64,000 nucleotides of DNA, taken from the IMG/VR virus record IMGVR_UViG_3300042542_005523. The stretch is one strand, 5' to 3'. Every line of letters starts with the position of its first letter. Within the stretch, counting starts at the first letter, position 1. This DNA comes from a virus. Lineage: Duplodnaviria > Caudoviricetes. Under the pieces are notes generated by a model. That model worked only from the letters and a program-made list of their open reading frames with translations, was not told the DNA's origin and ran no database searches. The position numbers and the translations under genes are program-made. Below are positions 9,313 to 35,424 of this stretch, piece by piece.

Positions 9313-9313
9313 T

Positions 9314-10063: not shown

Positions 10064-10083
10064 TGTTCTATATTATCAACGCG

Positions 10084-10092: not shown

Positions 10093-10115
10093 ATCAGATA
10101 AAATATTCGTGCCTC

Positions 10116-10409: not shown

Positions 10410-10426
10410 AAATAGAAATATAAAAA

Positions 10427-11527: not shown

Positions 11528-14500
11528 ATGCTTACGGATAACCTGTTTAGTGGAATTGTAGATTTTACCGACGGTAGCTTAAGCAGCTTAGTTGGTATCA
11601 CAGGTAGTGCGACATACGGGTCCAGTGTGATAACTGGAGTTGATAGCACGATCATACCTGGATTAACTGCTGGCCTTTCGGTTAGAGCACTACCAGAAGG
11701 AATTCTCAATCCCTCTACAACGATAGTTTCTTTGGGCTCTAACACGGTAGAGTTTTCTAACCCGGTAGGTTACACCGGATCCGCTAATTTTTATATAGAA
11801 CTAAGCAGCGGCAATTATCTTTTAAACAACGCTTTATTTGTTGACGTTAACAACATCTATAATGTTGGTGATATACCAGACTATCAAATAGGAGCCACTG
11901 GAGGATTGGTAATTTCTCCTTTTGCGATCTATACTCAGGGAAGATATAACGATCAGAAGAATCTTAAAGCCATATATGAAAAGTACATAATAACAAAAGT
12001 ACTTTCAAGGAACACAGTAACAAATAGATTTAGCGCTATAGTTACTTGGGGTTTTTCAGGATCTGCACCGACGAGTGTTAATACTGGACAGACAGTTCTA
12101 CCTATAACTCAGCTATCCCCGAATAATTTATTGCCTCCCATAATAGACTATAGAGCATTTTCTTATAAGAATCTTCCGGAAGGACAGCCATTTAATCAGG
12201 AGATATTAAAGGTCTTAGATTCTGGAGGAAGCGGAGGAAGCGGAGGAAGCGGAACTTCAGGAACAAGTGGTAGTTCAGGATCTTCAGGAACTTCAGGAAC
12301 AAGTGGTAGTTCAGGCACTAGCGGCACAGACGGTTCATCGGGAACTAGCGGTACAGATGGTTCAAGTGGAACTTCAGGAACTAGCGGTACGGATGGTTCA
12401 TCAGGAACTTCAGGAACATCAGGATCCAGTGGTTCTTCAGGTGAATCGGGTTCAAGTGGTTCATCAGGTGAATCGGGAACTTCAGGATCCAGTGGTTCAT
12501 CAGGTGAATCAGGTTCAAGTGGTTCTTCAGGTGAATCAGGAACTTCAGGAACTTCAGGATCGAGTGGAACATCGGGATCCAGTGGAACATCAGGTGAATC
12601 GGGATCCAGTGGAACATCAGGTGAATCAGGAACTTCAGGAACTTCAGGATCGAGTGGAACTTCGGGATCCAGTGGAACATCAGGTGAATCAGGAACAAGT
12701 GGTTCTTCAGGTGAATCAGGAACTTCAGGATCGAGTGGAACTTCGGGATCCAGTGGAACATCAGGTGAATCAGGAACAAGTGGTTCTTCAGGTGAATCAG
12801 GAACTTCAGGATCGAGTGGAACATCGGGATCCAGTGGAACATCAGGTGAATCAGGAACTTCAGGAACTTCAGGATCAAGTGGAACATCAGGATCCAGTGG
12901 TTCTTCAGGTGAATCGGGAACAAGTGGTTCTTCAGGGACATCTGGTTCAAGTGGTAGTGCGGGTTCATCTGGTTCAACGGGTACTTCAGGTTCTTCTGGA
13001 ACAGGAGGTTCATCAGGTAGCTCTGGTTCAAGTGGAAGTTCAGGTAGTACAGGTTCCTCAGGTTCAAGTGGTAGTTCAGGAACATCTGGCTCAACAGGTA
13101 CTTCAGGAACTTCAGGTTCAAGTGGGTCTTCAGGTAGTTCAGGAAGTAGCGGAACATCTGGTTCTAGTGGAAGTGTTGGAACTTCTGGTACATCAGGTTC
13201 ATCAGGTAGTGTAGGTACTAGTGGAACATCAGGTACATCAGGTACATCAGGTAGTGTAGGTACTAGTGGTACATCTGGTAGTTCAGGTTCTAGCGGTTCG
13301 TCAGGTAATAGTGGAAGTTCAGGTACAAGTGGAACATCAGGTACTTCTGGCTCTAGTGGAAGTGTTGGAACTTCTGGTACATCAGGAAGTTCAGGTTCTT
13401 CAGGTACTAGTGGTAGTTCTGGCTCTACTGGCACATCGGGTACTAGTGGCTCATCAGGAAGTGTAGGTACAAGTGGAAGTTCAGGTTCTAGCGGTTCATC
13501 AGGAAGTTCAGGTATTAGTGGTTCTTCAGGTTCTAGCGGAAGCGCTGGAAGCTCAGGAAGTACAGGTACATCAGGAACTAGTGGAACTTCAGGTAGTTCT
13601 GGTTCAGTAGGAACTTCAGGTACATCAGGTAGTTCTGGTTTATCGGGAAGCAGTGGTTCTTCAGGAAGTACTGGAACATCAGGAAGTACTGGAACTTCAG
13701 GTTCAAGTGGTAGTGTTGGGACTAGTGGTACATCGGGTTCAAGTGGTTCTTCAGGAAGTGTTGGTACGTCTGGTTCATCTGGAAGTGCAGGTACATCAGG
13801 AACTTCAGGGTCATCAGGAAGTTCAGGTACAAGCGGAACATCAGGAACTGGAGGAACTTCAGGTTCAAGTGGTAGTGTTGGGACTAGTGGTACATCAGGA
13901 ACAAGTGGTTCTTCAGGTACATCAGGTAGTTCAGGTTCAAGTGGTTCATCGGGAAGTTCAGGTTCAAGTGGTTCATCGGGTACATCAGGTAGTACTGGTA
14001 CTAGTGGTAGTAGTGGAACAAGCGGAACGTCGGGTTCATCAGGTTCTGCGGGAAGTAGTGGTTCATCAGGTAGTGTTGGAACATCTGGTTCAAGTGGTAG
14101 TTCAGGTAGTTATGGTTCATCAGGTACATCTGGCTCAAGTGGTAGCTCTGGTTCAACAGGTTCGTCAGGTAGTAGTGGTATAACTGGGTCTTCAGGTACG
14201 AGTGGTAGTTCTGGCACATCAGGTTCATCTGGTAGTTCAGGTTCTTCAGGTAGTACTGGTTCATCAGGAACTAGCGGAACATCAGGAACATCAGGTACAA
14301 GTGGTAGTTCAGGTTCTACAGGAACATCGGGTTCTACAGGAACATCGGGTTCATCAGGTAGTAGTGGCTCAAGTGGAAGTTCAGGATTGACAGGTTCATC
14401 AGGAACATCGGGTTCATCAGGGACATCGGGTTCATCAGGTAGTTCTGGTTCAAGTGGTAGTAGCGGAAGTACAGGGTCTTCGGGCACAAGTGGTAGTTCT

Positions 14501-17500
14501 GGTACATCAGGTTCATCAGGAAGTTCAGGTTCATCGGGTTCTAGCGGTAGTGTTGGAACTTCGGGAACAAGTGGTTCAAGTGGAAGTTCAGGTTCTTCAG
14601 GAAGTGTAGGAACATCAGGTACAAGTGGTAGTTCAGGTTCGTCTGGCTCAAGTGGAAATACAGGTTCAAGTGGAACGAGTGGTTCATCAGGTACATCTGG
14701 CTCAAGTGGTAGTTCAGGTTCGTCTGGCTCAAGTGGTTCAAGTGGAACGAGTGGTTCATCAGGTACATCTGGCTCAAGTGGTAGTTCAGGTTCGTCTGGC
14801 TCAAGTGGTTCAAGTGGAAGTTCAGGTTCTTCAGGAAGTGTAGGAACATCAGGTACAAGTGGTAGTTCAGGTTCTTCAGGTAGTTCAGGTGTTAATGGTT
14901 CTTCAGGGACTAGTGGTAGTTCGGGAACATCTGGTTCTTCAGGAAGTTCGGGTTCATCAGGTTCTAGTGGTAGTTCAGGAACATCTGGCTCAAGCGGGTC
15001 TTCTGGTTCAAGTGGAAGTACTGGTTCTTCAGGAAGTGCAGGTACATCGGGTAGTGTAGGAACTAGCGGTAGTTCTGGTTCATCTGGTTCTTCAGGTAGT
15101 ACTGGCTCAAGTGGTACTTCAGGTTCATCAGGTAGTGTAGGTACTAGTGGTTCATCAGGTAGTTCTGGTTCAAGTGGTAGTAGCGGAAGTACAGGGTCTT
15201 CTGGTACAAGTGGGAACTCAGGAACATCTGGTACAAGCGGAAGTACAGGGTCTTCTGGTACAAGCGGTTCATCAGGTAGTACTGGGTCAAGTGGAAGTTC
15301 AGGAAGTAGTGGTAGTGTAGGAACAAGTGGTTCTTCAGGGACATCTGGCTCAACAGGTACTTCAGGAACATCAGGTTCAAGTGGGTCTTCAGGTAGTTCG
15401 GGTTCATCAGGAAGTTCAGGTACAAGCGGAACATCAGGTTCAGTAGGAACAAGTGGTTCATCGGGAAGTTCAGGGTCAACAGGAACTTCAGGTTCAAGTG
15501 GGTCTTCAGGTAGTTCAGGAAGTAGCGGAACATCTGGTTCTAGTGGAAGTGTTGGAACTTCTGGCACATCAGGAACAAGTGGTTCATCGGGAAGTTCTGG
15601 TTCTGCCGGTACAAGTGGAAGTGTAGGAACAAGTGGTACTTCAGGTTCATCTGGCTCAAGTGGAAGTTCAGGTTCAACAGGTAGTTCAGGTACTAGCGGT
15701 TCATCTGGAAGTTCTGGTTCTGCAGGTACAAGTGGAAGTTCTGGTTCTTCAGGTAGTACGGGTTCAAGAGGAACTAGCGGAACATCAGGAAGTTCTGGTT
15801 CTGTTGGAACTAGTGGAACGTCTGGTTCAGTAGGAACTAGCGGAACATCTGGAACAAGTGGTTCATCAGGTTCTAGCGGTAGCGCTGGAAGCTCAGGAAG
15901 TGTAGGTACTTCAGGTACTAGTGGAAGCTCAGGAAGTGTAGGAACATCTGGTTCAAGTGGTACTACTGGTACCTCAGGAACATCAGGTAGTTCAGGTTCA
16001 TCTGGTAGTGTTGGTACATCAGGAACTTCGGGTACTAGCGGAACATCAGGTTCTAGCGGTTCGTCAGGAAATAGTGGAAGTTCAGGTACAAGTGGAACAT
16101 CGGGTTCAACTGGGTCTTCAGGCTCAAGTGGTAGTTCGGGAAGTGTTGGTACATCAGGAAGTAGTGGTTCTTCAGGTTCTAGTGGTAGTACTGGAAGCTC
16201 AGGAAGTACAGGTACATCGGGTTCAAGTGGAACTTCAGGTTCTTCAGGTACTAGCGGAACATCGGGAACTAGTGGTAGTTCAGGTTCAGTTGGTACATCA
16301 GGAACTTCGGGTTCAAGTGGTAGTTCTGGTTCTACTGGTACATCGGGTACTAGCGGTTCTTCAGGTTCTAGCGGTAGCGCTGGAAGCTCAGGAAGTACAG
16401 GTACATCAGGTACTAGTGGTAGTTCTGGTAGCGTAGGAACATCGGGTACATCAGGTAGTTCTGGTTCATCGGGTAGTTCTGGCTCAACAGGCTCGTCAGG
16501 TAGTAGTGGAACTTCTGGTTCATCTGGCTCAAGCGGAAGTGTTGGAACATCTGGTTCGTCAGGAAGTACTGGCTCAAGTGGTTCATCAGGAAGTACAGGA
16601 ACATCAGGTAGTGCTGGTTCTTCTGGCTCAAGTGGTAGTTCAGGTTCAAGTGGAAGTACTGGAACATCAGGTAGTAGTGGAACATCAGGTTCATCAGGTT
16701 CTAGCGGTAGTACTGGAAGCTCAGGAACGTCAGGTTCTGTAGGTACAAGCGGGACATCAGGAACTTCGGGAAGTACTGGTTCTAGTGGAAGTTCAGGAAC
16801 AAGTGGTTCATCTGGAAGTTCAGGGTCATCAGGAAGTACTGGTACATCAGGAACATCTGGTTCTTCAGGTAGTTCAGGTTCTAGCGGAAGTTCAGGTTCA
16901 AGTGGAACTAGTGGTAGTTCAGGAAGTTCTGGTTCATCGGGTAGTACAGGTTCTTCAGGTAGTTCAGGTTCTAGCGGAAGTTCAGGTTCAAGTGGAACTA
17001 GTGGTAGTTCAGGAAGTTCTGGTTCATCGGGTAGTACAGGTACTTCAGGAAGCTCAGGTTCAAGTGGAACTAGTGGTTCTTCAGGGTCTAGCGGTTCATC
17101 GGGTTCTAGTGGAAGTTCAGGGTCATCTGGTAGTACAGGTTCAAGAGGAACTAGCGGTTCTTCAGGAACATCAGGTACTAGTGGTACATCAGGAAGTGTT
17201 GGGACAAGTGGTACGTCAGGAAGTACTGGAACATCAGGTTCAAGTGGTAGTGTAGGTACATCGGGAACTTCAGGTTCATCTGGAAGTACGGGTAGTTCAG
17301 GTACTAGCGGTAGTAGTGGTTCATCAGGAAGTTCTGGCTCGACTGGTAGTTCAGGAAGTTCTGGAACTTCAGGTTCTAGTGGTAGTTCGGGAACATCAGG
17401 GTCATCAGGTAGCGTAGGTACTAGCGGTTCTTCTGGTTCAAGTGGAAGTTCAGGTTCTAGCGGAAGTACAGGGTCAAGCGGAACTAGTGGAAGTTCAGGT

Positions 17501-20500
17501 TCATCTGGAAGTGTAGGAACAAGTGGAACCTCAGGTTCAGTAGGTACAAGTGGTACATCAGGAAGTTCAGGCTCAAGTGGTAGTACGGGTTCATCTGGTA
17601 CTAGCGGCTCTTCGGGAAGTACTGGGTCATCTGGAAGTTCAGGTTCAACAGGAACTAGCGGTTCTTCAGGAACATCAGGTAGTAGCGGTTCTAGTGGTAG
17701 TGCTGGTAGTTCAGGTTCTGCGGGTACAAGTGGAAGTGTAGGAACATCTGGGACTTCTGGTTCAAGTGGGTCATCAGGTTCTAGTGGGAGTGTTGGAACT
17801 TCTGGTACATCAGGAACAAGTGGTTCGTCAGGTTCTAGCGGTAGTGCTGGAAGCTCAGGAAGTACTGGTTCATCAGGTTCTGCGGGAAGTGCTGGTACAT
17901 CAGGGGTTAATGGTTCTTCAGGAACATCAGGTTCTGCTGGCTCAAGTGGAAGTTCAGGTTCTTCAGGTAGTGTTGGTACTTCTGGTACAAGCGGAACTTC
18001 AGGTTCATCAGGTAGTGCTGGCTCGTCGGGGTCTAGCGGTTCTGTTGGTACTTCAGGTAGTAGTGGAACATCTGGAAGCTCTGGCTCAAGTGGTAGTGCG
18101 GGGTCATCAGGGAGTACTGGTACAAGTGGAAGTTCGGGTTCAACTGGTACTTCAGGTAGTTCAGGAACATCTGGTACTTCAGGTTCAAGTGGAAGTAGTG
18201 GCTCATCAGGTTCTTCAGGAAGTGCTGGTACAAGTGGAACATCTGGCTCATCAGGTTCAACGGGTAGTTCAGGAAGTGCTGGTACAAGTGGAACATCAGG
18301 TTCTAGTGGAAGTAGTGGTAGTTCAGGGTCATCTGGTTCTGCGGGTACATCAGGAAGTAGTGGAAGTACAGGTTCTTCTGGTTCAAGTGGGACATCAGGT
18401 TCAACGGGTAGTTCAGGAAGTAGTGGAACAAGTGGTTCATCTGGTACTTCAGGTTCATCTGGCTCAAGTGGTAGTACGGGTTCTTCAGGAAGCTCAGGCT
18501 CAAGCGGAAGTTCTGGTTCAACAGGTTCTAGAGGAACAAGTGGAACTTCTGGTTCGTCAGGAACTAGCGGAACGTCAGGAACATCTGGTTCATCAGGAAG
18601 TTCGGGTTCAAGTGGTTCGTCTGGGTCTACAGGAACAAGTGGTTCGGCTGGTACATCAGGAAGTAGTGGAAGTTCAGGGTCTAGTGGTAGTGCTGGAAGT
18701 TCAGGGTCTAGTGGTAGTGCTGGAAGTTCAGGTTCAGTAGGTACAAGTGGTTCTTCAGGAACATCAGGTTCTAGTGGGTCTTCAGGAAGTTCTGGTAGTT
18801 CAGGTTCAGCTGGTACAAGTGGAAGTGTAGGAACATCTGGTTCTTCAGGAAGTTCTGGTTCAAGTGGTTCATCAGGAAGTTCAGGTTCTACAGGTTCAAG
18901 AGGAACATCGGGTACTAGTGGTACATCAGGTAGTAGTGGTTCTAGTGGTAGTGCTGGTACTTCAGGTTCAGTAGGGACAAGTGGCTCTTCAGGAAGTGCT
19001 GGTAGTTCAGGTTCATCGGGTAGTAGCGGAACATCAGGTTCGTCAGGAACAAGTGGTTCGTCAGGGTCTAGCGGTAGTACTGGAAGTTCAGGAAGTTCTG
19101 GCTCTGTTGGTACATCAGGTAGTTCGGGGTCATCCGGAAGCTCAGGAAGTAGTGGTTCATCAGGTACATCGGGAGCTAACGGAAGTTCAGGAACATCTGG
19201 GTCTAGTGGAAGTTCAGGAAGTAGTGGTTCATCAGGCTCAAGTGGGTCTGCTGGTACTTCAGGTGCTAACGGAAGTTCAGGAACAAGTGGTTCGTCAGGT
19301 TCTAGCGGAAGTGCTGGAAGCTCAGGAAGTTCGGGAACATCAGGTAGTAGTGGTAGTTCAGGGTCCTCAGGGAGTACAGGTTCAAGAGGAACAAGCGGTT
19401 CTTCAGGTACATCAGGAACCTCAGGAAGTGCTGGTTCATCAGGTTCTTCAGGTTCAAGTGGAAGTGTAGGAACAAGTGGTAGTTCTGGTTCTGCGGGTTC
19501 TAGTGGAACTTCAGGTTCAACAGGAACATCAGGTAGTTCAGGTTCAAGTGGAGTAACTGGTTCTTCAGGTACTAGCGGTTCTTCAGGAAGTTCTGGGTCA
19601 TCAGGGTCTAGTGGAAGTGTTGGAACTAGCGGTTCATCTGGTACAAGTGGTTCATCAGGTAGTTCAGGAAGTTCGGGTTCAAGCGGTAGTAGTGGAAGTT
19701 CAGGGTCAACAGGTTCAAGAGGAACATCAGGAAGTACTGGTACAAGTGGTTCGGCTGGTACCTCAGGTTCAAGTGGAAGTTCAGGTAGTAGTGGATTAAG
19801 TGGTGTTGATGGTACTAATGGAACATCTGGAAGTTCTGGTTCAAGTGGTGTTAACGGAAGTTCAGGAAGTAGTGGTACATCTGGTTCTAGTGGAAGTTCT
19901 GGCTCTGCTGGTAGTTCAGGTTCTGCAGGTACAAGTGGAAGTGTTGGAACATCAGGTTCTTCAGGGAGTTCTGGTTCAAGTGGTTCTTCAGGAAGTTCTG
20001 GCTCAACAGGTTCAAGAGGAACAAGTGGTTCTTCAGGGACTTCAGGAAGTTCAGGTTCAAGTGGAAGTAGTGGAAGTTCAGGGTCATCAGGTGTTAGTGG
20101 TTCTTCAGGGACATCAGGTTCAAGTGGAAGTTCAGGTTCTTCTGGTTCAAGTGGAAGTTCAGGAACATCTGGCTCAACAGGAACTTCAGGGTCATCAGGT
20201 TCTAGTGGAAGTACTGGTACTTCAGGTAGTTCAGGAACATCAGGGTCTAGCGGTAGTTCGGGGTCATCTGGAAGCTCAGGAAGTAGTGGTTCATCAGGTA
20301 CATCGGGAGCTAACGGAAGTTCAGGTACAAGTGGTTCTTCAGGAAGTAGTGGTAGTTCAGGGTCATCTGGCTCTGCTGGTACATCAGGTGCTAATGGAAG
20401 TTCAGGAACATCTGGTTCAAGTGGTAGTGCTGGAAGCTCAGGAAGTAGTGGTAGTTCTGGTTCCGTTGGAACTTCAGGTTCTAGCGGTTCATCAGGAAGT

Positions 20501-23820: not shown

Positions 23821-23844
23821 TTCTGAAGTACTATAAAACTATAA

Positions 23845-24240: not shown

Positions 24241-24245
24241 CAAAC

Positions 24246-24274
24246 GAAACAAAGATACCTCTTAATTGTATAAT
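24246..24274 (+). promoter_or_regulatory. Candidate middle promoter GAAAC-N18-TATAAT upstream of the glycosylation cluster
   Basis: GAAAC 24246-24250, TATAAT 24269-24274. This places the real start at GTG 24290 rather than TTG 24266. Confidence 0.7.
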
Positions 24275-24289
24275 AAGGAAAGGTACTTC

Positions 24290-28255: not shown

Positions 28256-29991
28256 TGGAAAAATTACTTTCGGTTATAGTTCCGGCATATAATTTTGAAA
28301 AATACCTTGAAGAGTGTATAGATTCAATTTACAACCAAAAAATTATCTACGGATATGAGGTAATTGTTAGAGATGATTGTTCAAAAGATAATACTAAAGA
28401 TGTTTTAGTTAAACTAAAAGAAAAATACACCGATTTAAGAGTATTAAATGGTGATGTTAATTTGGGAGCGTTAGAAAATATAAGAACTTTATTAGATGCT
28501 TGTACGACAAAATATATCGCATATATTGATGGTGATGATTATTTTGACAATTATACAATTTTGAATGAAGAGGTTGAATTTTTAGAGAATAGCCCAAATT
28601 ATAGTATGGTATGTACCGGAACTAGATATTTGTATCCTAACGGGGCAAGAGTACCAGTAGTAACTGAGTTATTTATTAGCTCATTTCTTGACGATGTTAC
28701 AACGGATGACTTACTTACAATCAATCACGCTTCATTTGCGAGAGTGTTTAGAAACATACCAAATTTAATAAAAGATTACTTCAAAAATCTACCCTATGTT
28801 GATTGGCCACTTAACTATGAAATTAGTAAACATGGTTTAATTAAATGTATTCATAAGTGTGGTGGAATTTATAGAATATCTAATGATGGTATGTTCTCAA
28901 ATGTGTCTGAAGAGGAAAAAAACAAAAAAAATTCAATAGTTATTAATGAACTTAAAAGACAACATCTTAAAAATGATTTCAAAACAATAACTATAGTTGA
29001 TTGTTTTATTCATAATGAAAACGTTTTAGGTAAATTGGAGTTATGTATAAATAACTTAAAAAAATATAATCATACAATACTTTTGGTATCTAATACAATT
29101 GTGCCTGAACATATAATAAAAAATGTTGATTATCATCTATATAATTCTAATAATATTCTTTTTGAGGGTGAGTATACTGATTCAGAGCCAGTTGTATTTT
29201 GGAAAAAAGTCAATGGATTAACAATTTACGAAGTTATTAATACAATACAAAAACATGGATTACCTGTTATGGTTAATCTATTTAATTCATTGGACTTATG
29301 TAAATCACTTGGATTTACTCACTTCCAAAGAATCGAAGTTGATGATTTATATACTGACGAAGGTTATGAACATATGAGAAGTGTTCCTTTGATTTGTTCT
29401 GAGAAAAATAAAAAGGGTGTGTTCTATTTTAATGAAGGTAAAGATGTATCATTTCACTATTTTTATTGCGAGATAGAGTATTTCCAACAGATAATAAATA
29501 GAGTTAGTTGTGAAGAAGATTATAAAAATTATTTATTAACTCACGGATATGGTACTGATTTCATAAATGTTGAAAAATATCTATACGATAACATAAACAG
29601 GAATGATCCCGGTTTATTAATAAGAAAGGATGGTGAGGAAGAAATGAACTCTGATTTTTACGGAACATTATGGAATACAGAAACTACAGGTAGTAACGTA
29701 TCGTCTAAATTTAGAGGATGTTCAAGTAAACTTTATAAGATATTAGGACAAGAGCCTATAATGTTATTATCTTATAATTATAATAATTTTAGGTCCGAGA
29801 GAAAAATAATTGTAAATTACGTGGATAATACTTCTGGAGTGTTTTATCACGGTTTAGATAATTACGGACATTGGTCATTTAATATTTTTGAAAATGAAAT
29901 TGAAAAAATATTAGTATACGATAGTCAAACTGACGAATTTTTATATGAAATAATAAACGAAAACATTGTTGATTATATCGTTTTTTTATGA
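28255..29991 (+). CDS. GT2 glycosyltransferase with additional C-terminal domain
   Basis: LSVIVPAYNFEKYLEECIDSI, VRDDCSKD, YIAYIDGDDY. Confidence 0.85.
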   Translation: MEKLLSVIVPAYNFEKYLEECIDSIYNQKIIYGYEVIVRDDCSKDNTKDVLVKLKEKYTDLRVLNGDVNLGALENIRTLLDACTTKYIAYIDGDDYFDNYTILNEEVEFLENSPNYSMVCTGTRYLYPNGARVPVVTELFISSFLDDVTTDDLLTINHASFARVFRNIPNLIKDYFKNLPYVDWPLNYEISKHGLIKCIHKCGGIYRISNDGMFSNVSEEEKNKKNSIVINELKRQHLKNDFKTITIVDCFIHNENVLGKLELCINNLKKYNHTILLVSNTIVPEHIIKNVDYHLYNSNNILFEGEYTDSEPVVFWKKVNGLTIYEVINTIQKHGLPVMVNLFNSLDLCKSLGFTHFQRIEVDDLYTDEGYEHMRSVPLICSEKNKKGVFYFNEGKDVSFHYFYCEIEYFQQIINRVSCEEDYKNYLLTHGYGTDFINVEKYLYDNINRNDPGLLIRKDGEEEMNSDFYGTLWNTETTGSNVSSKFRGCSSKLYKILGQEPIMLLSYNYNNFRSERKIIVNYVDNTSGVFYHGLDNYGHWSFNIFENEIEKILVYDSQTDEFLYEIINENIVDYIVFL

Positions 29992-30755
29992 TCGGATTAA
30001 CTATAACCACCTGTAAAAGAATTGATTTGTTTGAAAAGACAATATTAACATTTGTAAGTGAATGTGAAGATTGTAATTCAATTGATGTCATAATTCATTA
30101 CGATGATTCATCATCTTTGGATGATAGAAATAAAATGTTTACATTATTGAATACATTATTTACTGACACTTTAATAATATCTAAAAGATTTAATCCAAAT
30201 TCGTTTAACACTAATCGAAGACATTTAGAGATAATGAAAAAATGGAAAGAAGACATAAAATTTTTTAATGTGGATTATGTTTTTCATTTAGAAGATGACT
30301 GGTTATTTGAAAACAAATTTAGTATCCAAGAGGGTGTTGAATTATTAAAGAATAATGATGAAATTGCTATGGTTGGATTTTCATGGAAAAGAAAGATATT
30401 CCCGAAAGAATTATTTGAACCAAGGATTATTGGTAATTTTTGGGAGTGGTATTATTCTGATAAACATTATCTGAATGAACCTTTGTTTAATGATACGGTT
30501 GAAGAAACTTTACACGCAGATAAAGGAATGTGGATTAAATATATTAATTGGCCTTACTTCGGATTTAGACCGGCAATACATGATGTTAATAAATTAAATC
30601 AAATTGAAAATTTTAACGATAATATGGATTCTTTTGAGTTGGAATTTGCAATAAGGTTTGCAAAAAAATTCAAATCGTTTTTACATTTGGAAAAAATTTG
30701 TTATCATATTGGTGATGAAAATTCATCATATAATTTAAATAATTCTTTAAGATAA
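29988..30755 (+). CDS. GT-A fold glycosyltransferase (GT2-like)
   Basis: ITTCKR, HYDDSS, YVFHLEDDW (DxD-like), HIG motif. Confidence 0.7.
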   Translation: MIGLTITTCKRIDLFEKTILTFVSECEDCNSIDVIIHYDDSSSLDDRNKMFTLLNTLFTDTLIISKRFNPNSFNTNRRHLEIMKKWKEDIKFFNVDYVFHLEDDWLFENKFSIQEGVELLKNNDEIAMVGFSWKRKIFPKELFEPRIIGNFWEWYYSDKHYLNEPLFNDTVEETLHADKGMWIKYINWPYFGFRPAIHDVNKLNQIENFNDNMDSFELEFAIRFAKKFKSFLHLEKICYHIGDENSSYNLNNSLR

Positions 30756-31327
30756 TGGATTATAATTTTTTATGGGTACCTAAGACCACTTATCATAGGT
30801 CAGCACAAAGTCAGTTTGTTGTTGATGTTTTTCCTAAAATATTAAAAAATTTTGAATTGATAATTGAAATTGGAACATTTACAGGAGCGTTCACTTTATG
30901 GTTGTCTGAAAATAACTCTGATAGTTGTAAAATAATCTCTTACGATATTAATCCTGATTATTGTGAAGTTAATAATCTTAAAGATACCGAATTAAGAATT
31001 GGAGATTGTTTTGATATTGATGTTATGAAAGATATTCGTGATCTAATTAACAATTCGGGTAGAACTCTTTTTTTATGTGACGGAGGGGATAAGGAACTTG
31101 AGTTTAGATTATATTCAAAGTACTTGAAAAAGGATGATGTTATAATGCTCCACGATTATTCACATAGTGATGAAGAGTATAATATTATTAAACAAAAAAT
31201 AAACTGGCCAACAAATTCAGAATCACACTATAAGAATATTGAAAGATACTTACCTGAACTTAATTTAAGTACATATATGTATGATGATTTTAAACAAGTT
31301 TTATGGGGTTCGTTTATAAAAAATTGA
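30755..31327 (+). CDS. Class I SAM-dependent methyltransferase
   Basis: IIEIGTFTGA, ISYDI, IGDC, LFLCDGGDK, IMLHDY. Confidence 0.7.
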   Translation: MDYNFLWVPKTTYHRSAQSQFVVDVFPKILKNFELIIEIGTFTGAFTLWLSENNSDSCKIISYDINPDYCEVNNLKDTELRIGDCFDIDVMKDIRDLINNSGRTLFLCDGGDKELEFRLYSKYLKKDDVIMLHDYSHSDEEYNIIKQKINWPTNSESHYKNIERYLPELNLSTYMYDDFKQVLWGSFIKN

Positions 31328-31328
31328 T

Positions 31329-32048
31329 ATGAATTATAAGATTAAATTAGTTCATTTACAGACAACACAGAATGAACATAGAGAAAAACTATCACGAAAA
31401 TCTATACAACAAGTAATACCTTATGGCATTGAATATGTTTTGCATCAGAACGAGCTGTATACCTCCTTACCTCCAGTTCATACAAGTGTTAGACCACATA
31501 ATGTTAGGATCGGTAAGTATGAAGATGTTAATGACCCTGAATATGGGAACGCATTAACTCCAGCTCACTACGGATGCTTTGAGGCTTTTAAAATTGGTAT
31601 CCTATCAGAATTTGATAATGATTTAGATTTCTTAATTGTCTGTGAGGGTGATTGTATAATAGAAGTACCCATTGAAGAATTTATAGATAAAGTTAATTGT
31701 GTATGTGGTATTGTTAATCAGGAAGATGTTTCTTATTTTTCATTTGGGGATACCAAAACTTTAGATTATGGGTGGCATCAATCAGATGTTGTTAGAGAAA
31801 TACCAAATCAGGATTTATTGTTTATTACTAATAAAATAATTGGTTTACAATGTGTTATGTTTTCAAAAAAATCACGTAAAATAATTATGGATCAATTAAG
31901 AACACATAGATGGGATTGTGCTGACACATTTTTTAATATGATATGTGGTGAACAAAGATTAACTATGGGTATTTTGAAAAAGAGAATAACAACACAAGTG
32001 GACGGAGAATCATTCATTGATAAAGAGTATAAAGTTTTTACAAAATAA
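31329..32048 (+). CDS. Probable glycosyltransferase (GT25-like/GT-A)
   Basis: AHYGCFEAF...LIVCEGDC resembles the GT25 GCxxSH...xEDD layout; cluster context. Confidence 0.5.
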   Translation: MNYKIKLVHLQTTQNEHREKLSRKSIQQVIPYGIEYVLHQNELYTSLPPVHTSVRPHNVRIGKYEDVNDPEYGNALTPAHYGCFEAFKIGILSEFDNDLDFLIVCEGDCIIEVPIEEFIDKVNCVCGIVNQEDVSYFSFGDTKTLDYGWHQSDVVREIPNQDLLFITNKIIGLQCVMFSKKSRKIIMDQLRTHRWDCADTFFNMICGEQRLTMGILKKRITTQVDGESFIDKEYKVFTK

Positions 32049-32049
32049 T

Positions 32050-32595
32050 ATGGCACACGAACAACAAAAGAATTTTTTTAAGAGGGTTAAAGATAAATAC
32101 CCAAGATATTTCACGGATGTAAAAGTTTTAGATATTGGTTCTTTGGATATAAATGGTTCAATAAGAGATTTATTTAATTACCCATTTTATTACGTTGGAT
32201 TAGATCTGGCACCTGGGAAAAATGTTGATGTGATTTGTCCTGGACATTTATATGATTCTGGATTTCAGTTTGATGTTGTTTCATCGGGTGAATGTTTTGA
32301 ACATGATATGTATTACGCAAGAACTATACAGAATATGGTTAGACTCCTTAAGTCTGGTGGTTTAATGGTTTTTACTTGTGCGTCAACAGGGAGACATGAG
32401 CATGGTACATTAAGAACTACTCCTGATAACGCACCTTTCTTGGGTGATATTAGTGAAAAGTGGGCAAATTACTATAAGAATTTAACTGAAGATGATATTA
32501 GGTCAGTTATTGATGTTAATGATATTTTCAATGACTTTGGATTTGAATATGAACCAGTAACTTGTGATTTATATTTTTGGGGGATTAAAAAATGA
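32050..32595 (+). CDS. SAM-dependent methyltransferase (type 11-like)
   Basis: VLDIGSLDING, VGLDLAPGKNVD, FDVVSSGECFEHD, LLKSGG. ATG 32050 (MAHEQQ) is preferred over 32017. Confidence 0.85.
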   Translation: MAHEQQKNFFKRVKDKYPRYFTDVKVLDIGSLDINGSIRDLFNYPFYYVGLDLAPGKNVDVICPGHLYDSGFQFDVVSSGECFEHDMYYARTIQNMVRLLKSGGLMVFTCASTGRHEHGTLRTTPDNAPFLGDISEKWANYYKNLTEDDIRSVIDVNDIFNDFGFEYEPVTCDLYFWGIKK

Positions 32596-33287
32596 TTGAT
32601 ATAGATGTTATTTGTCTTACAAATACTATTTCCGATGACTTATATTGGATGACTCGTCGAACATTAATGACCATACATGATTCTGAAAAAGATTATAAAT
32701 TTCATATTCATTTAATAGAAACAAATTCTGAAAGTGGTTACGATTATTTAGATATTGTTGAAAATTATGTAAAACCAAATGAAAAATTTAATTACAATAG
32801 ATTTTTAAATCATTCCTATCCGTATGTTAAACACGATTGGGTTATTATAACTAATAATGATGTGAGATATGAACGAGGTTGGTTTTCAAAAATAATTGAT
32901 GTATATACTAAAAGACCTGATGTTGAATCTTTTTCACCTAAATGTCCGATACTTTATTCAAAATATTTTTTTGATGATTTTTTAGGAGGTGATTTAGATT
33001 TTCATGAGAGTGTTGGAACTAGCGTACATCTAATGGGTTGGTCGTTAATTATGAAAAAAAGAGTATTTGATATTGTTTATCCTTGGGATGAAAACTTTGA
33101 CATGTACTACCAAGATAATGATTATGCTGAAATTTTATTAAAAAATAACATTAAACACGGTTTGGTTAGGGACTCAATAGCGACTCATTTAGAATCACAA
33201 ACTATAAAATATAAATTTAATTCAAATACAATTGATAATCTTAGAGTAAAAAATTATTTTTACAATAAATGGGGAAAAGAAATTTAA
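32592..33287 (+). CDS. GT2 glycosyltransferase
   Basis: FNYNRFLN, VIITNNDV, WDENFDMYYQDND, ATH motifs. Confidence 0.8.
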   Translation: MIDIDVICLTNTISDDLYWMTRRTLMTIHDSEKDYKFHIHLIETNSESGYDYLDIVENYVKPNEKFNYNRFLNHSYPYVKHDWVIITNNDVRYERGWFSKIIDVYTKRPDVESFSPKCPILYSKYFFDDFLGGDLDFHESVGTSVHLMGWSLIMKKRVFDIVYPWDENFDMYYQDNDYAEILLKNNIKHGLVRDSIATHLESQTIKYKFNSNTIDNLRVKNYFYNKWGKEI

Positions 33288-33288
33288 T

Positions 33289-35424
33289 ATGAAAATTACA
33301 CAAGTAACACCAGGAATTATTACGATACCTCCAAACGGTTGGGGGGCAGTTGAAAAAGTTATATGGGAATATTATAACAACATTAAAGAATTAGGACACG
33401 AATGCGATATAAGATATCTTAATGATACTAAGGGTAGTAATAGTGATATTGTTCACATTCATATGGCTAATTTGGCAATTGAAGCTGCTAATCAAGGGAT
33501 ACCCTATATTTTTTCATTACATGACCACCACGTTGTTTATTATGGTAAGAAGTCATCTAACTACCAACAAAATTTAGAAGCGATTAAAAGATCAGTAATA
33601 TCTTTTACACATGCTGAGATTTTGGTAGACTATTTTGATGAAACAGATAAGTTGTTCTATCTATCCCATGGTGTTAATACCGGGTTCTTTAAAAATAATA
33701 ATCCAAAAAGAACTGAACATAAACTATTGTGCTTGGCAAATAATGGTATCGGAGGTGATTCAACGTATGATAGAAAAGGATTTAGGTATGCTATCGAAGC
33801 GGCAATAAAATTGGATTTACCAATTACGGTTGCTGGTCCGGAAAACAATAGAATATTCTTTGAACACCACAATGACTTATTAAATTATGATAAGCTAACT
33901 TTAATGTTTTCAAATCCAAACGAAGAACAGATATTAGAACTTTATAAAAGTCATTCTATATTCTTACACCCGTCTATATTGGAGGCAGGACATCCAAACC
34001 TTACATTACTTGAAGCGGTATCTTGTAATATGCCAGTTGTTGGTACTTACTCGGGTTCACAAAAAATTGAAGGAATGGTTGTGGTTGAAAGGGATGTAAA
34101 TCAAATTGTTAATGGAGTTAAACAAGTAATTGATAATTATGATTTATATCTAAATAACACTGAATTAGATAGACAAAAATACGATTGGAGTGTTATTACA
34201 AAGAGAATGGTTAGAATTTATGGAGACCTTATGGATAGTAAGAAAAATTTAAATAGTCTTGAAACCAAACAAAAATTTGATAGAGTGTTTGAAAATACAG
34301 AAATTAAACCAGTGGAAATGGTTGAAAAAATTGAGATAATTAACCACTATATAAACGGAGCGTTAGTTGAAATTAAAGGAAATACCGATAAAAAATATTT
34401 GGTTGAGTTTTGGAACCAAAATGGTGAATGTGAATATCGTGAGGAGATTGGTTGTAATATGTGGGTTAAACTAAACAAGAAATATTTTGATGAGTATACT
34501 TTAAAAGTTTATTCTGACGGTCACTTGATTAGTGAAAAGAAATATAATGCTGAGAATAAAAGAGTTTATATTGCCTTAGATTCGAAATCTTTGGGAGACA
34601 CTTTTGCTTGGGTCCCATACGCTGAGGAATTTAGAAAGAAACATAACTGTAAGGTTGTTTGTTCAACATTCTTTAATGATTTATTTGTTAAACAATATCC
34701 TGAAATACATTTTGTTCACCCTGGTAGTATTGTTGATAACCTATATGCGATGTATGAGATAGGTTGGTTTTATGACGGTGATAATGTTAAAATGGATAGA
34801 CATCCAAGTGATTTTAAATTAGGTCCGTTACAAAAAACTGCCACAGATATTTTAGGGTTGGAATATAAAGAAGTTAAACCTTTAATTAAAAATCCTAACA
34901 AGTTAAAGAAAAAAAGAGTTGGATTAGGCATTCATTCAACTGCTCAGTCTAAGTATTGGAATAATCCAAAAGGCTGGCAAGATGTTACTGATTATTTGAT
35001 TTCACTTGGATATGAGGTGATTATCTACTCAAAAGAAGAAGATGGGTATATGGGTAATTTTTATCCAAAAGGTGCTAAACAAAACCCTCCTGACTCAATC
35101 TATAAACTTATTGAAGAACTGTCAACATGTGAATTCTTTATAGGTATATCAAGTGGTATTTCATGGGTGACCTGGGCGTTAGACATACCGACAGTATTGA
35201 TTTCTGGATTTACTGAAGAGTTTAATGAACCTTATGAGAATGTGTATAAGGTTAGTGCTCCTGAAAATACTTGTAGAGGATGTGCAAATAAGTTTAGATT
35301 AGACCCAGGTGATTGGAACTGGTGTCCTGTAAATAAGGGAAATGAAAAGATGTTTGAATGTTCTAAAAAGATAACATCTGAAATGGTGATAAATGTAATT
35401 AAAAGAGAGGGATTAGCAAAATGA
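33289..35424 (+). CDS. Fusion: GT4 glycosyltransferase + TibC/AAH-like (autotransporter O-heptosyltransferase family) protein glycosyltransferase
   Basis: N-half: IPPNGWGAVE, RKGF, FLHPSILEAGHPNLTLLEAVSC (GT4). C-half: YIALDSKSLGDTFAW, FIGISSGISWVTWA, LISGFT, CRGC...WCP...FECSKKI four-Cys metal site. Confidence 0.8.
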   Translation: MKITQVTPGIITIPPNGWGAVEKVIWEYYNNIKELGHECDIRYLNDTKGSNSDIVHIHMANLAIEAANQGIPYIFSLHDHHVVYYGKKSSNYQQNLEAIKRSVISFTHAEILVDYFDETDKLFYLSHGVNTGFFKNNNPKRTEHKLLCLANNGIGGDSTYDRKGFRYAIEAAIKLDLPITVAGPENNRIFFEHHNDLLNYDKLTLMFSNPNEEQILELYKSHSIFLHPSILEAGHPNLTLLEAVSCNMPVVGTYSGSQKIEGMVVVERDVNQIVNGVKQVIDNYDLYLNNTELDRQKYDWSVITKRMVRIYGDLMDSKKNLNSLETKQKFDRVFENTEIKPVEMVEKIEIINHYINGALVEIKGNTDKKYLVEFWNQNGECEYREEIGCNMWVKLNKKYFDEYTLKVYSDGHLISEKKYNAENKRVYIALDSKSLGDTFAWVPYAEEFRKKHNCKVVCSTFFNDLFVKQYPEIHFVHPGSIVDNLYAMYEIGWFYDGDNVKMDRHPSDFKLGPLQKTATDILGLEYKEVKPLIKNPNKLKKKRVGLGIHSTAQSKYWNNPKGWQDVTDYLISLGYEVIIYSKEEDGYMGNFYPKGAKQNPPDSIYKLIEELSTCEFFIGISSGISWVTWALDIPTVLISGFTEEFNEPYENVYKVSAPENTCRGCANKFRLDPGDWNWCPVNKGNEKMFECSKKITSEMVINVIKREGLAK

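What the first reader, a model, noticed from the sequence alone, without database searches (positions are those of the whole stretch)
11528..35424. Candidate phage-encoded protein O-glycosylation system: giant Ser/Thr fibre next to its own glycan-building cluster
Seen: a 4015-aa protein carrying roughly two thousand Ser/Thr sits directly upstream of nine contiguous genes for GT4, GT2 and GT25-like transferases, four methyltransferase domains, a DegT aminotransferase, a NeuD/PglD-like acyltransferase, and a TibC/AAH-type enzyme. All lie between tail and neck genes. Known: TibC/AAH enzymes put sugars on Ser residues of proteins; DegT plus PglD-like enzymes make N-acylated amino sugars; FkbM-type enzymes O-methylate glycans. 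Inference: the phage builds a mucin-like glycosylated fibre or coat, comparable to giant-virus fibril glycans. It could serve adhesion, host-surface mimicry, protease shielding or anti-aggregation. No nucleotide-sugar synthases are visible in the window, so donors would be host-derived or encoded elsewhere.
Basis: partly seen in the sequence, partly recalled or inferred. Interest (0 to 1): 0.92.

Follow-up and report, generated by a model that had tools for sequence, protein, structure and literature searches.

The report
Phage collagen-like giant fibre with glycosylation genes
A lake-water jumbo phage encodes a 4015-residue, proline-free collagen-like fibre made almost only of Gly-Ser/Thr triplets. 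Beside it lies an operon of sugar-transferring enzymes ending in a TibC/Aah-type protein O-glycosyltransferase, so the phage very probably sugar-coats its own fibre, though nothing has been tested at the bench.

Summary
The 4015-aa ORF (11528-23575) is not mucin-like. It is a strict collagen-like protein with 1129 uninterrupted Gly-X-Y triplets, 92-97% Ser/Thr in X and Y and one Pro. A second block of 45 triplets and a C-terminal jelly-roll head follow. Downstream are ten tightly packed ORFs, not nine. They carry 5-7 glycosyltransferase domains, four methyltransferase domains, a truncated DegT-like domain and a NeuD/PglD-like acetyltransferase. The last ORF is a GT4 fused to a true TibC/Aah-family enzyme: TIGR04414 266 bits against a cut-off of 200, and E 3e-50 to TibC. 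The catalytic Asp, three sugar-binding residues and the four iron-finger Cys are kept; Arg286 is not.

In IMG/VR, 20 of 34 phage lineages with this enzyme have a Ser/Thr-rich Gly-X-Y gene within 10 kb, often under 1 kb away. In control loci only 2 of 16 lineages do, both kin of this phage. Relatives also carry sugar-nucleotide genes, GDP-mannose dehydratase-like and GmhA/HldE-like.

Self-glycosylation of the fibre is the best reading (about 0.6). No glycan, donor or acceptor site has been shown. This scan has noted the same theme on other DNA before, and I found no paper describing it.

The parts
9314..10063 (+). gp15-like tail sheath stabiliser, marking the structural (late) module upstream
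   Evidence: Pfam PF16724 T4-gp15_tss, E 1.6e-6, 27.9 bits against a cut-off of 25
10427..11521 (+). Tail-fibre-like protein with an Mtd_N N-terminal domain. Its stop lies 6 nt before the giant gene's start.
   Evidence: Pfam PF18454 E 7.5e-13; 13 PHROG tail fibre/spike families
11528..12223 (+). N-terminal globular domain of the giant fibre (aa 1-232), the presumed virion-attachment end
   Evidence: Non-repetitive sequence. No Pfam, PHROG or word-index match. Identical in the second strain G007. The attachment role is inference.
12224..22384 (+). Uninterrupted collagen-like run of 1129 Gly-X-Y triplets (aa 233-3619). X is 96% Ser/Thr and Y is 88% Ser/Thr. This is the proposed O-glycan acceptor.
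   Evidence: Script count; Pfam Collagen E 1.6e-94. The DNA repeats are degenerate, 64-99% matches with periods that are multiples of 9.
22385..22735 (+). Internal globular domain (aa 3620-3736)
   Evidence: Non-Gly-X-Y stretch; no family match
22736..23140 (+). Second collagen-like block of 45 triplets (aa 3737-3871)
23141..23575 (+). C-terminal head domain (aa 3872-4015), a jelly-roll beta-sandwich. Probable trimerisation or receptor-binding tip.
   Evidence: 29 homologues; where complete, the domain stands at the C-terminal end of the hit, on Ser/Thr-rich fibre-like proteins in the five read. AlphaFold model pLDDT 87. Best matches are TNF-family ligands (Z 8.4), the phage 1358 receptor-binding protein (Z 8.1) and the BclA head (Z 6.9-7.0).
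23575..23820 (+). 81-aa ORF of unknown role between fibre and cluster
   Evidence: no family match
24266..27052 (+). 928-aa three-domain enzyme: GT4 (aa 173-292), FkbM methyltransferase (aa 522-684) and a truncated DegT-like PLP domain (aa about 720-928)
   Evidence: Pfam E 3e-11, 4e-12 and 3e-12. The DegT alignment keeps the Schiff-base Lys motif but lacks about 45 aa of the large domain and most of the small domain.
27049..27675 (+). FkbM-family methyltransferase
   Evidence: Pfam PF05050 E 7e-16; TIGR01444 52 bits, above its cut-off of 37.7
27668..28255 (+). NeuD/PglD-like left-handed beta-helix sugar N-acetyltransferase
   Evidence: TIGR03570 E 3.7e-43, 147.5 bits against a cut-off of 160.8; Pfam Hexapep and PglD_N
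28255..29991 (+). GT2 glycosyltransferase (aa 1-165) with a 410-aa C-terminal part of unknown fold
   Evidence: Pfam PF00535 E 9e-26; no match for the C-terminal part
29988..30755 (+). 255-aa protein of unknown family; a weak lead to a GT-A/GT2-like enzyme
   Evidence: No Pfam, NCBIfam or PHROG hit. Language-model neighbours are viral clusters, one with 20% GT2 members.
30755..31327 (+). Class I SAM methyltransferase
   Evidence: Pfam FtsJ E 2.3e-5, 24.8 bits against a cut-off of 24.1
31329..32048 (+). GT-A fold glycosyltransferase, GT25-like
   Evidence: Model pLDDT 87. Best PDB match is human collagen galactosyltransferase COLGALT1, E 7e-8, TM 0.57-0.62. Three homologues are named GR25 family by JGI; atlas lead.
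32017..32595 (+). SAM-dependent methyltransferase
   Evidence: phrog_32762 E 4e-56; Pfam Methyltransf_11 22.7 bits against a cut-off of 21.2
32592..33287 (+). GT2-like glycosyltransferase
   Evidence: phrog_22332 E 3e-10; atlas neighbours GT2 at 0.99; Pfam GT2 only E 0.04
33289..35424 (+). 711-aa fusion of a GT4 (aa about 1-320) with a TibC/Aah-family protein O-glycosyltransferase (aa 368-706). This is the proposed initiating enzyme on fibre Ser/Thr.
   Evidence: TIGR04414 E 4.9e-79, 266 bits against a cut-off of 200. phmmer to TibC 4rap, E 3.4e-50. D437, T551, K555, W626 and C662/665/679/691 are invariant in 35 phage representatives.
35749..38256 (+). gp14-like neck protein (835 aa), marking the structural module downstream
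   Evidence: Pfam PF11649 E 2.6e-6; phrog_679 head closure E 8e-9

Best explanation
The phage glycosylates its own giant collagen-like fibre in the host cytoplasm before or during assembly.

Shown:
- The fibre is a 4015-aa protein with an N-terminal globular domain, 1129 unbroken Gly-Ser/Thr-Ser/Thr triplets, a small globular domain, 45 more triplets and a jelly-roll head.
- The adjacent operon ends in a true TibC/Aah-family enzyme, a family whose studied members O-glycosylate Ser on repetitive proteins.
- That enzyme family travels with Ser/Thr-rich Gly-X-Y genes across many phage lineages.

Inferred:
- The TibC-like domain puts the first sugar on Ser/Thr side chains in the X and Y positions, which point outward in a triple helix. 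It does so on the unfolded chains.
- The fused GT4 and the other four to five glycosyltransferases extend the glycan.
- Four methyltransferases O-methylate it.
- A dehydratase (GDP-mannose 4,6-dehydratase-like, just upstream of the window in the sister strain), the DegT-like domain and the NeuD/PglD-like acetyltransferase supply a 4-acetamido-4,6-dideoxyhexose cap.
- Three chains then zip from the C-terminal head into a triple helix up to about 1 micrometre long (3387 residues at 0.286 nm). The glycans supply the hydration and stiffness that proline and hydroxyproline give in animal collagen.
- The sugar-coated fibre serves for first contact with the host or particles, and for protection against proteases.

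The donor of the first sugar is not settled. It may be ADP-heptose as in TibC, but the Arg286 sugar contact is lost.
For: 1. Enzyme identity. TIGR04414 scores 266 bits, above the cut-off of 200. The match to TibC PDB 4rap is E 3.4e-50 over TibC residues 62-384. TibC Asp110 (catalytic base), Thr226, Lys230, Trp305 and the iron-finger Cys339/342/358/370 are defined in PMC4358343. All are conserved here and invariant in 35 phage representatives.

2. Acceptor. The run of 1129 Gly-X-Y triplets holds 2072 of the protein's 2258 Ser/Thr, in positions that are solvent-exposed in a triple helix (the exposure is established collagen structure).

3. Co-occurrence. Of 34 phage lineages with the TibC-like enzyme (80% identity clusters of 80 IMG/VR loci), 20 have a Ser/Thr-rich Gly-X-Y run of at least 15 triplets within 10 kb. 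With one exception these are on the same strand, and seven lie under 1 kb away. Control loci around a replicative helicase give 2 of 16 lineages, both kin of this phage (Fisher p 0.0024).

4. Within this phage's own group, G008 and G010 (complete, 373 and 348 kb) have both the enzyme and giant Ser/Thr collagen genes side by side. G009 (430 kb, complete) has neither the enzyme nor Ser/Thr-rich runs.

5. Gene context. The cluster sits on the same strand inside the late structural module, and its ORFs overlap by 1-8 nt. It contains no lipid-carrier priming transferase, flippase, polymerase or ligase.

6. Sugar supply. A Gmd-like gene (393 bits) lies about 4 kb upstream in the strain that is 97% identical. 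GmhA-like and HldE-kinase-like genes are present in G008.

7. Precedents. BclA, a collagen-like protein with a C1q/TNF-like head, carries O-glycans capped by a methylated 4-acylamino-4,6-dideoxyhexose (PMC6222408, PMC8968730). Mycobacteriophage virions are glycosylated by phage enzymes (Freeman et al. 2023, cited in PMC12619734).
Against: - No glycan, donor or modified residue has been observed; all the evidence is genomic.
- Known TibC/Aah acceptors are beta-helical autotransporter passengers, not Gly-X-Y chains.
- The sugar-contact residue Arg286 of TibC is replaced by Leu here, and by Val, Leu, Ile or Thr across nearly all the phage clade.
- In relatives with a cluster about 90% identical in protein (G002-G004), the giant collagen gene is about 28-30 kb away, so adjacency is not required.
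- 14 of 34 lineages show no Ser/Thr-rich Gly-X-Y gene within 10 kb, including most stand-alone 386-aa forms.
- The DegT-like domain is truncated.
- The cluster's G+C (28-32%) differs from the flanks (36-39%), as expected for a mobile module that could serve another purpose.
- That the ORF is a virion component rests on position and on its fibre-type C-terminal domain only.
- Hits in metatranscriptome contigs are sparse and could be DNA carry-over.
Confidence: 0.6

Rival explanations
1. The cluster glycosylates virion proteins, but the main acceptors are proteins other than the giant collagen-like fibre. Candidates include the oversized sheath, the neck protein, the capsid, or beta-helical fibres nearer to the natural TibC acceptor type. 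Under this reading the fibre is merely a neighbour.
For: Known TibC/Aah acceptors are beta-helices (PMC4358343). In G002-G004 the cluster is about 28-30 kb from the collagen gene. 14 of 34 lineages lack a nearby Ser/Thr-rich Gly-X-Y gene. Mycobacteriophages glycosylate capsid and tail tube (Freeman et al. 2023, cited in PMC12619734).
Against: The association with Ser/Thr-rich Gly-X-Y genes is strong and often immediate, under 1 kb in seven lineages. All five checked relatives that carry the cluster also carry giant Ser/Thr collagen genes. The relative without the enzyme has only ordinary, short collagen runs that are not Ser/Thr-rich.
Confidence: 0.15
2. The cluster is an auxiliary metabolic module that remodels host envelope glycans (lipopolysaccharide, capsule or S-layer glycan) during infection, for example to block superinfection. 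It has nothing to do with the fibre.
For: GT2, GT4, GT25-like, FkbM, DegT and NeuD/PglD families are typical of O-antigen and capsule loci. The cluster has lower G+C than the flanks and sits in different genomic contexts in relatives, as a mobile cassette would. Glycosyltransferases in huge phages are commonly read as envelope-related (bioRxiv 10.64898/2026.10.24.761521).
Against: The cluster has no undecaprenyl-phosphate priming transferase, flippase, polymerase or O-antigen ligase. The best-identified enzyme belongs to a family whose characterised members modify proteins in the cytoplasm. The position in the late structural module and the statistical link to Ser/Thr-rich collagen genes are not expected under this reading.
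Confidence: 0.15
3. The glycosyltransferases and methyltransferases hypermodify the phage DNA.
For: Phage glycosyltransferases that decorate DNA bases are widespread (bioRxiv 10.1101/2023.12.21.572611). A dCMP deaminase gene lies in the window at 48429-48977.
Against: The window has no hydroxymethylase, TET/5mYOX-type or base-directed transferase signature. FkbM, DegT, NeuD and TibC families act on sugars or proteins. The cluster lies in the structural module.
Confidence: 0.03

Closest known systems
TibC/Aah bacterial autotransporter heptosyltransferases (BAHT family; PDB 4rap, 4rb4; PMC4358343)
   Same: The C-terminal 340 aa of the 711-aa protein match over nearly the whole enzyme (TIGR04414 positions 27-373 of 374). 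The catalytic Asp, Thr226, Lys230, Trp305 and the four-Cys iron finger are kept. The gene lies next to a long, repetitive, Ser-rich protein, as tibC lies next to tibA.
   Different: The enzyme is phage-borne and fused to an N-terminal GT4. The neighbouring repetitive protein is a Gly-X-Y collagen-like chain, not a beta-helical autotransporter passenger. Arg286, a heptose contact, is not conserved, and the position of Pro300, the stereoselectivity determinant, is Ser or Gly. Donor sugar and oligomeric state are unknown.
BclA and other Bcl collagen-like glycoproteins of the Bacillus exosporium and F-ENA tip fibrils
   Same: The architecture matches: an N-terminal attachment domain, a Gly-X-Y stalk rich in Thr, and a C-terminal TNF/C1q-like jelly-roll head. 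In BclA the stalk carries O-glycans capped by a methylated 4-acylamino-4,6-dideoxyhexose (anthrose; PMC6222408). The phage locus has the matching enzyme types: aminotransferase-like, acyltransferase, methyltransferases and a nearby 4,6-dehydratase.
   Different: BclA triplets are mostly Gly-Pro-Thr; this fibre has one Pro in 2258 X/Y positions. The collagen region here is 3387 residues, against 27-1158 reported for Bcl proteins (PMC8968730). The enzymes are unrelated to the BclA glycosylation enzymes so far as tested. The head similarity is at fold level only (Z about 7).
Mycobacteriophage virion glycosylation (Freeman et al. 2023, Cell Host Microbe; cited in PMC12619734)
   Same: Phage-encoded glycosyltransferases sit beside structural genes and decorate the phage's own virion proteins with O-linked glycans.
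   Different: There the acceptors are the C-termini of capsid and tail-tube subunits, and the enzymes are not of the TibC family. Here the proposed acceptor is a micrometre-scale collagen-like fibre and the cluster is much larger. That system is experimentally shown; this one is not.
Giant-virus fibril glycosylation and Mimivirus collagen-like proteins (PMC9614988)
   Same: A virus-encoded, host-independent glycosylation toolkit builds methylated and N-acylated amino-deoxy sugars on surface fibrils. The GT25-like ORF's fold also matches Mimivirus R655.
   Different: Those are eukaryotic viruses. Mimivirus collagen is modified on hydroxylysine, and their fibril proteins are not Gly-Ser-Ser repeats. 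No TibC-type enzyme is known there.

Membership tests
BAHT (TibC/Aah O-heptosyltransferases, TIGR04414) | Sequence score above the curated family cut-off over the full catalytic region | tested here: met
   266 bits against a cut-off of 200, profile positions 27-373 of 374; phmmer to TibC E 3.4e-50
BAHT (TibC/Aah O-heptosyltransferases, TIGR04414) | Catalytic base Asp110 | tested here: met
   D437 in the motif SLGDTFAW; invariant in 35 of 35 phage representatives. Residue role from PMC4358343.
BAHT (TibC/Aah O-heptosyltransferases, TIGR04414) | Four sugar-binding residues: Thr226, Lys230, Arg286, Trp305 | tested here: not met
   T551, K555 and W626 are conserved and invariant. Arg286 aligns to L607, and to Val, Leu, Ile or Thr in 34 of 35 representatives. 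Three of four are met, so the donor sugar may differ.
BAHT (TibC/Aah O-heptosyltransferases, TIGR04414) | Four-Cys 1Fe-0S iron finger (Cys339, 342, 358, 370) | tested here: met
   C662, C665, C679 and C691, invariant in 35 of 35. Iron binding itself was not tested.
BAHT (TibC/Aah O-heptosyltransferases, TIGR04414) | Dodecameric ring | not testable with these tools
   Not modelled.
BAHT (TibC/Aah O-heptosyltransferases, TIGR04414) | Acceptor is a self-associating autotransporter passenger, encoded next to the enzyme | tested here: not met
   No autotransporter is in the window. The repetitive neighbour is a collagen-like fibre.
BAHT (TibC/Aah O-heptosyltransferases, TIGR04414) | ADP-heptose as donor | not testable with these tools
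   There is only indirect evidence. GmhA-like and HldE-kinase-like genes are in one complete relative, G008, and absent from G010, G002, G003 and G009.
Collagen-like proteins (Pfam PF01391) | Gly at every third residue over a long, uninterrupted stretch | tested here: met
   1129 and 45 triplets without a break; Pfam E 1.6e-94
Collagen-like proteins (Pfam PF01391) | Triple-helix formation, usually helped by Pro/Hyp or charged residues | not testable with these tools
   There is one Pro among 2258 X/Y positions and few charged residues. Helix formation would need circular dichroism or microscopy.
BclA-type glycosylated collagen-like fibre | C-terminal C1q/TNF-like trimerising head after the Gly-X-Y stalk | tested here: inconclusive
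   Jelly-roll model with pLDDT 87. TNF-family ligands score Z 8.4 and BclA Z 6.9-7.0, but Z under 8 can be a common arrangement.
BclA-type glycosylated collagen-like fibre | O-glycans on Thr/Ser of the stalk | not testable with these tools
   Needs mass spectrometry of the protein
   Strict period of 3 with Gly, and 0.5% Pro in the whole protein
GT25 (31329-32048) | Match to the family by sequence or by fold | tested here: inconclusive
   No Pfam PF01755 hit. The best fold match is COLGALT1 at E 7e-8, but other GT-A enzymes follow closely. JGI names three homologues GR25 family.
DegT/DnrJ/EryC1 sugar aminotransferases (aa 720-928 of 24266-27052) | Complete fold-type I PLP domain of about 360 aa with the Schiff-base Lys | tested here: not met
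   Only about 210 aa are present. The Lys motif is kept, about 45 aa of the large domain are missing, and most of the small domain is missing.

The most novel reading that the evidence does not exclude
A proline-free collagen exists whose triple helix, about one micrometre long, is made stable by dense O-glycosylation of nearly every X and Y residue. A phage-borne branch of the ring-shaped TibC enzyme family has been re-targeted from autotransporters to Gly-X-Y chains to do this. Under this reading, sugar-stabilised collagen fibres would be a widespread, undescribed class of phage appendage in lakes.
Probability: 0.3. Interest if true: 0.88.

Novelty: new variant of a known kind. Interest (0 to 1): 0.72.

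Why it matters
Phage virion glycosylation has so far been shown only in mycobacteriophages. TibC/Aah enzymes are known only as modifiers of bacterial adhesins. Bacterial and phage collagen-like regions are reported up to about 1,160 residues.

If the reading holds, it adds three things:
- a new acceptor class for a known protein O-glycosyltransferase family;
- the longest collagen-like stalks yet seen, 3,387 residues here and 3,504 in a relative;
- a natural test of whether sugars can replace proline and hydroxyproline in holding a triple helix together.

The pairing recurs in dozens of uncultured phage lineages, and this phage turns up in lake metagenomes from at least a dozen studies. It may therefore bear on how large freshwater phages find hosts, resist proteases or stick to particles. 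The enzyme-substrate pair would also be a compact tool for making glycosylated designer collagens in bacteria.

Tried and rejected
- Megablast of the cluster against 50,697 GenBank phage records found no match.
- A complex prediction of the TibC-like domain with a 60-residue Gly-X-Y piece was not folded. 
- A word-index search with the fibre's N-terminal domain found no relatives. Pfam, PHROG and NCBIfam found nothing for the N-terminal and internal globular domains, the 81-aa ORF, the 255-aa ORF, or the C-terminal 410 aa of the GT2 protein.
- A profile of the GT25-like ORF against PDB sequences found nothing. Only the fold search did.
- The promoter and terminator scan of the cluster was no better than shuffled sequence.
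- Laying metatranscriptome contigs on the locus gave a few short, exact pieces in cluster genes. These cannot be told apart from DNA carry-over, so I make no claim of expression.
- The 2478-aa ORF on the minus strand (14110-21546) was rejected as a by-product of the repeats. The plus frame starts 6 nt after the upstream gene and has conserved non-repeat ends.
- The mucin-like reading was rejected because of the strict Gly periodicity.
- DNA hypermodification was rejected for lack of any base-directed enzyme signature.

Full report
**What the window is.**
- The 64-kb window carries a T4-like replication and morphogenesis set. It includes a UvsX-like recombinase, a gp41-like helicase, gp46/47-like nuclease subunits, a gp15-like tail protein, a gp14-like neck protein, large terminase, sheath, two tube paralogues, two portal paralogues, DNA ligase and a clamp-loader-like ATPase.
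- The terminase is only 33-39% identical to those of huge uncultured phages, Sphingomonas phage PAU and Tenacibaculum phage PTm1.
- Relatives with 73-76% identical helicase are IMG/VR contigs of 348-434 kb; the three checked (G008, G009, G010) are rated 100% complete. This is therefore a jumbo phage.
- Near-identical DNA occurs in lake-water metagenomes from more than a dozen studies.

**The observation.**
- ORF 11528-23575 encodes 4015 aa with 2258 Ser+Thr. Its start lies 6 nt after the stop of an Mtd_N-type fibre gene.
Residues 233-3619 form one run of 1129 Gly-X-Y triplets without a single break. X is 96% Ser/Thr, Y is 88% Ser/Thr, and there is one Pro in all X/Y positions.
- Then come a 117-aa globular piece, 45 more triplets and a 144-aa C-terminal domain. 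Pfam Collagen scores E 1.6e-94 on a 661-aa sample.
- At the DNA level the repeats are degenerate, with 64-99% matches and periods of 63-135 nt, all multiples of nine. The unbroken Gly register is therefore maintained by selection and is not a fresh amplification.
- At the canonical rise of 0.286 nm per residue, the main run would be about 970 nm long as a triple helix (my arithmetic).
- A review gives 27-1158 residues for Bcl collagen-like regions, and describes phage collagen motifs as being about 18 residues long (PMC8968730).

**The gene is real.**
- IMG/VR contig G007 is 97% identical in DNA over 13 kb upstream and 20 kb downstream. [quoted passage not shown]
- The fibre therefore varies between strains, as receptor-contact proteins often do.

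**The head.**
- A full HMMER scan with the C-terminal 144 aa found 29 representatives. Where it is complete, the domain stands at the C-terminal end of the hit; the five proteins I read are Ser/Thr/Gly/Asn-rich and fibre-like.
- A model built on 22 sequences has pLDDT 87. It is a jelly roll. The best matches are TNF-family ligands (Z 8.4), the receptor-binding protein of lactococcal phage 1358 (Z 8.1), and BclA and F-BclA heads (Z 6.9-7.0).
- The tool warns that Z under 8 may reflect only a common arrangement. I call the TNF/C1q-like assignment moderate.

**The cluster.**
- Ten ORFs (24266-35424) overlap or abut by 1-8 nt. Their G+C is 28-32%, against 36-39% in the flanks.
- Firm assignments:
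  - GT4 + FkbM + DegT-like (928 aa);
  - FkbM;
  - NeuD/PglD-like acetyltransferase;
  - GT2;
  - two class I methyltransferases;
  - GT4 + TibC/Aah (711 aa).
- The DegT-like domain keeps the Lys motif but is only about 210 aa.
- ORF 31329-32048 has no Pfam hit. Its model (pLDDT 87) matches human collagen galactosyltransferase COLGALT1 (GT25) best, at E 7e-8, closely followed by other GT-A enzymes including Mimivirus R655. This supports 'GT25-like' at fold level only.
- ORF 32592-33287 is GT2-like (phrog_22332 E 3e-10). ORF 29988-30755 stays unassigned.
- The cluster has no lipid-carrier priming transferase, flippase, polymerase or ligase.

**The key enzyme.**
- Residues 368-706 of the last protein score 266 bits on TIGR04414, the Aah/TibC equivalog model, whose cut-off is 200. 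They align to TibC (PDB 4rap) at E 3.4e-50.
- Residue roles come from the TibC structure paper (PMC4358343). The catalytic base Asp110, the sugar contacts Thr226, Lys230 and Trp305, and the four iron-finger cysteines are all present. All are invariant in 35 representatives of phage homologues.
- Arg286, the fourth sugar contact, is Leu here and hydrophobic or Thr in 34 of 35. The stereoselectivity position Pro300 is Ser or Gly.
- The fold and chemistry of the family are therefore kept, but the donor sugar is open.

**Does the enzyme go with the fibre?**
- A scan of IMG/VR returned 142 relatives of the TibC-like domain. The best 80 loci, with up to 10 kb of flank, fall into 34 clusters at 80% identity.
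- Twenty clusters have a Gly-X-Y run of at least 15 triplets with at least 60% Ser/Thr in the flank. With one exception these are on the same strand, and in seven clusters they lie under 1 kb from the enzyme gene.
- Forms fused to other domains are positive in 17 of 26 clusters. Stand-alone forms of about 386 aa are positive in 3 of 8.
- The window's own cluster counts as negative in that tally only because the fibre ends 10.7 kb from the domain.
- Control loci around the helicase gave 2 positive clusters of 16, both close kin of this phage with the same synteny. The other 14 clusters had none. Fisher's exact test gives p 0.0024 on clusters.
- Clusters are not fully independent, so this is support and not proof.
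- Within the phage's own group:
  - G008 and G010 have the enzyme and giant Ser/Thr collagen genes next to each other across the contig ends.
  - G009 has no such enzyme and only short collagen runs of 13-22 triplets with 28-57% Ser/Thr.
  - In G002-G005, whose cluster is about 90% identical in protein to the window's, giant collagen genes are present (up to 4772 aa, with 1168 unbroken triplets). Where both positions are known (G002, G004), they lie about 28-30 kb away from the cluster.
- The link is thus genome-wide rather than strictly positional.

**Sugar supply.**
- The window holds no nucleotide-sugar synthase.
- In strain G007 a GDP-mannose 4,6-dehydratase-like gene lies about 4 kb before the window's first base (TIGR01472 393 bits, cut-off 415).
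- A 4,6-dehydratase, a DegT-type aminotransferase and a PglD-like acetyltransferase are the three steps to a 4-acetamido-4,6-dideoxyhexose. This pathway logic is my inference from established sugar biochemistry.
- The variant cluster in G001 has two epimerase/dehydratase genes inside it.
- G008 has GmhA-like (239 bits) and HldE-kinase-like (301 bits) genes, the first steps to ADP-heptose. The other four relatives checked lack them.

**Mechanism proposed.** Only the identities and the co-occurrence are shown; everything below is inference.
- The TibC-like domain starts O-glycans on Ser/Thr of the still-unfolded chains. The review notes that in animal collagen such modifications cannot occur once the trimer has formed.
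- The other transferases extend the glycans and the methyltransferases cap them.
- The head then nucleates a three-chain helix whose outward-facing X/Y side chains carry the sugars.
- Glycosylated Thr is believed to aid the hydration network of BclA (PMC8968730). From my own knowledge, galactosylated Thr stabilises the hydroxyproline-poor cuticle collagen of a vent worm.

**Rivals.**
- Other virion proteins as the main acceptors: 0.15.
- Host envelope remodelling: 0.15.
- DNA modification: 0.03.

**Prior knowledge.**
- Searches of the paper library found the TibC structural work, BclA and giant-virus glycans, and mycobacteriophage virion glycosylation. I found no paper linking TibC-type enzymes to phage collagen-like fibres.
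- This scan's own earlier notes describe the same theme on at least eight other genomes. They are unchecked AI notes and do not count as independent evidence, but they agree with the survey made here.

**Verdict.** This is a new variant of a known kind. It is untested at the bench.

Noticed in passing
window 58237-59811 and 59826-61475: Two tandem T4-type portal (gp20) paralogues, 524 and 549 aa (Pfam PF07230 E 2e-56 and 4e-64). Two portal genes in one phage are unusual.
   Followed up: no
window 44343-44897 and 44913-45488: Two adjacent tail-tube paralogues, both matching phrog_32623 and phrog_45.
   Followed up: no
window 40961-44302 and 35749-38256: The tail sheath is 1113 aa, with only its C-terminal 360 aa matching sheath families. 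The gp14-like neck protein is 835 aa. Both are much longer than their T4 counterparts, so they carry large extra domains of unknown role.
   Followed up: no
window 57107-57592: A TnsA-like endonuclease N-terminal domain (PF08722 E 1.5e-17) sits between a sigma-like gene and a DNA-end-protector-like gene.
   Followed up: no
L179 (G007:C1:20500-33500), ORF 512-10759: The sister strain (97% DNA identity in the flanks) has the giant fibre at 3416 aa, with an extra 147-aa globular domain splitting the collagen run into 288 and 592 triplets. Only the last 4.5 kb aligns at 97% or more, so the stalk is hypervariable between strains.
   Followed up: partly
L192 (G007:C1:3629-7360), ORF 1489-2472: A GDP-mannose 4,6-dehydratase-like gene (TIGR01472 393 bits, cut-off 415) lies about 4 kb upstream of the window's first base in the sister strain. 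It would feed the DegT-like and acetyltransferase steps.
   Followed up: partly
L190 5687-6286 and L191 3128-4096 (G008, complete 373-kb relative): Phage-borne GmhA-like sedoheptulose-7-phosphate isomerase (239 bits) and HldE-domain-I-like heptose-7-phosphate kinase (301 bits). The kinase sits between a 538-aa ORF that I did not annotate and the DNA ligase gene; in the window, portal and ligase genes stand directly side by side with no kinase between them.
   Followed up: partly
window 21500-23260: In lake metagenome contigs the Gly-Ser/Thr repeat DNA piles up to summed word depths of 2500-5900. The unique cluster next to it reaches only about 5 in the same run. Such repeats are therefore very common in those communities, well beyond this phage.
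   Followed up: no
L001-L006, L031, L193 (G001, IMGVR_UViG_3300032309_002862): A variant of the cluster is 82-89% identical in most genes. It has a 4-kb insertion, two epimerase/dehydratase genes inside the cluster, and a TibC-like domain only 57% identical. The contig starts just after the collagen gene. The cluster is mosaic.
   Followed up: partly
window 25226-25795 (aa 320-510 of the 928-aa enzyme): The linker between the GT4 and FkbM domains holds three GVDSP repeats and a duplicated motif of about 60 aa (IINYTGNEKLN...). It matches no family.
   Followed up: no
window 24266-35424 against its flanks: G+C is 28-32% in the cluster, 36-39% in neighbouring phage genes and 47-49% in the collagen repeats. 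This is consistent with the cluster being an acquired, mobile module.
   Followed up: no
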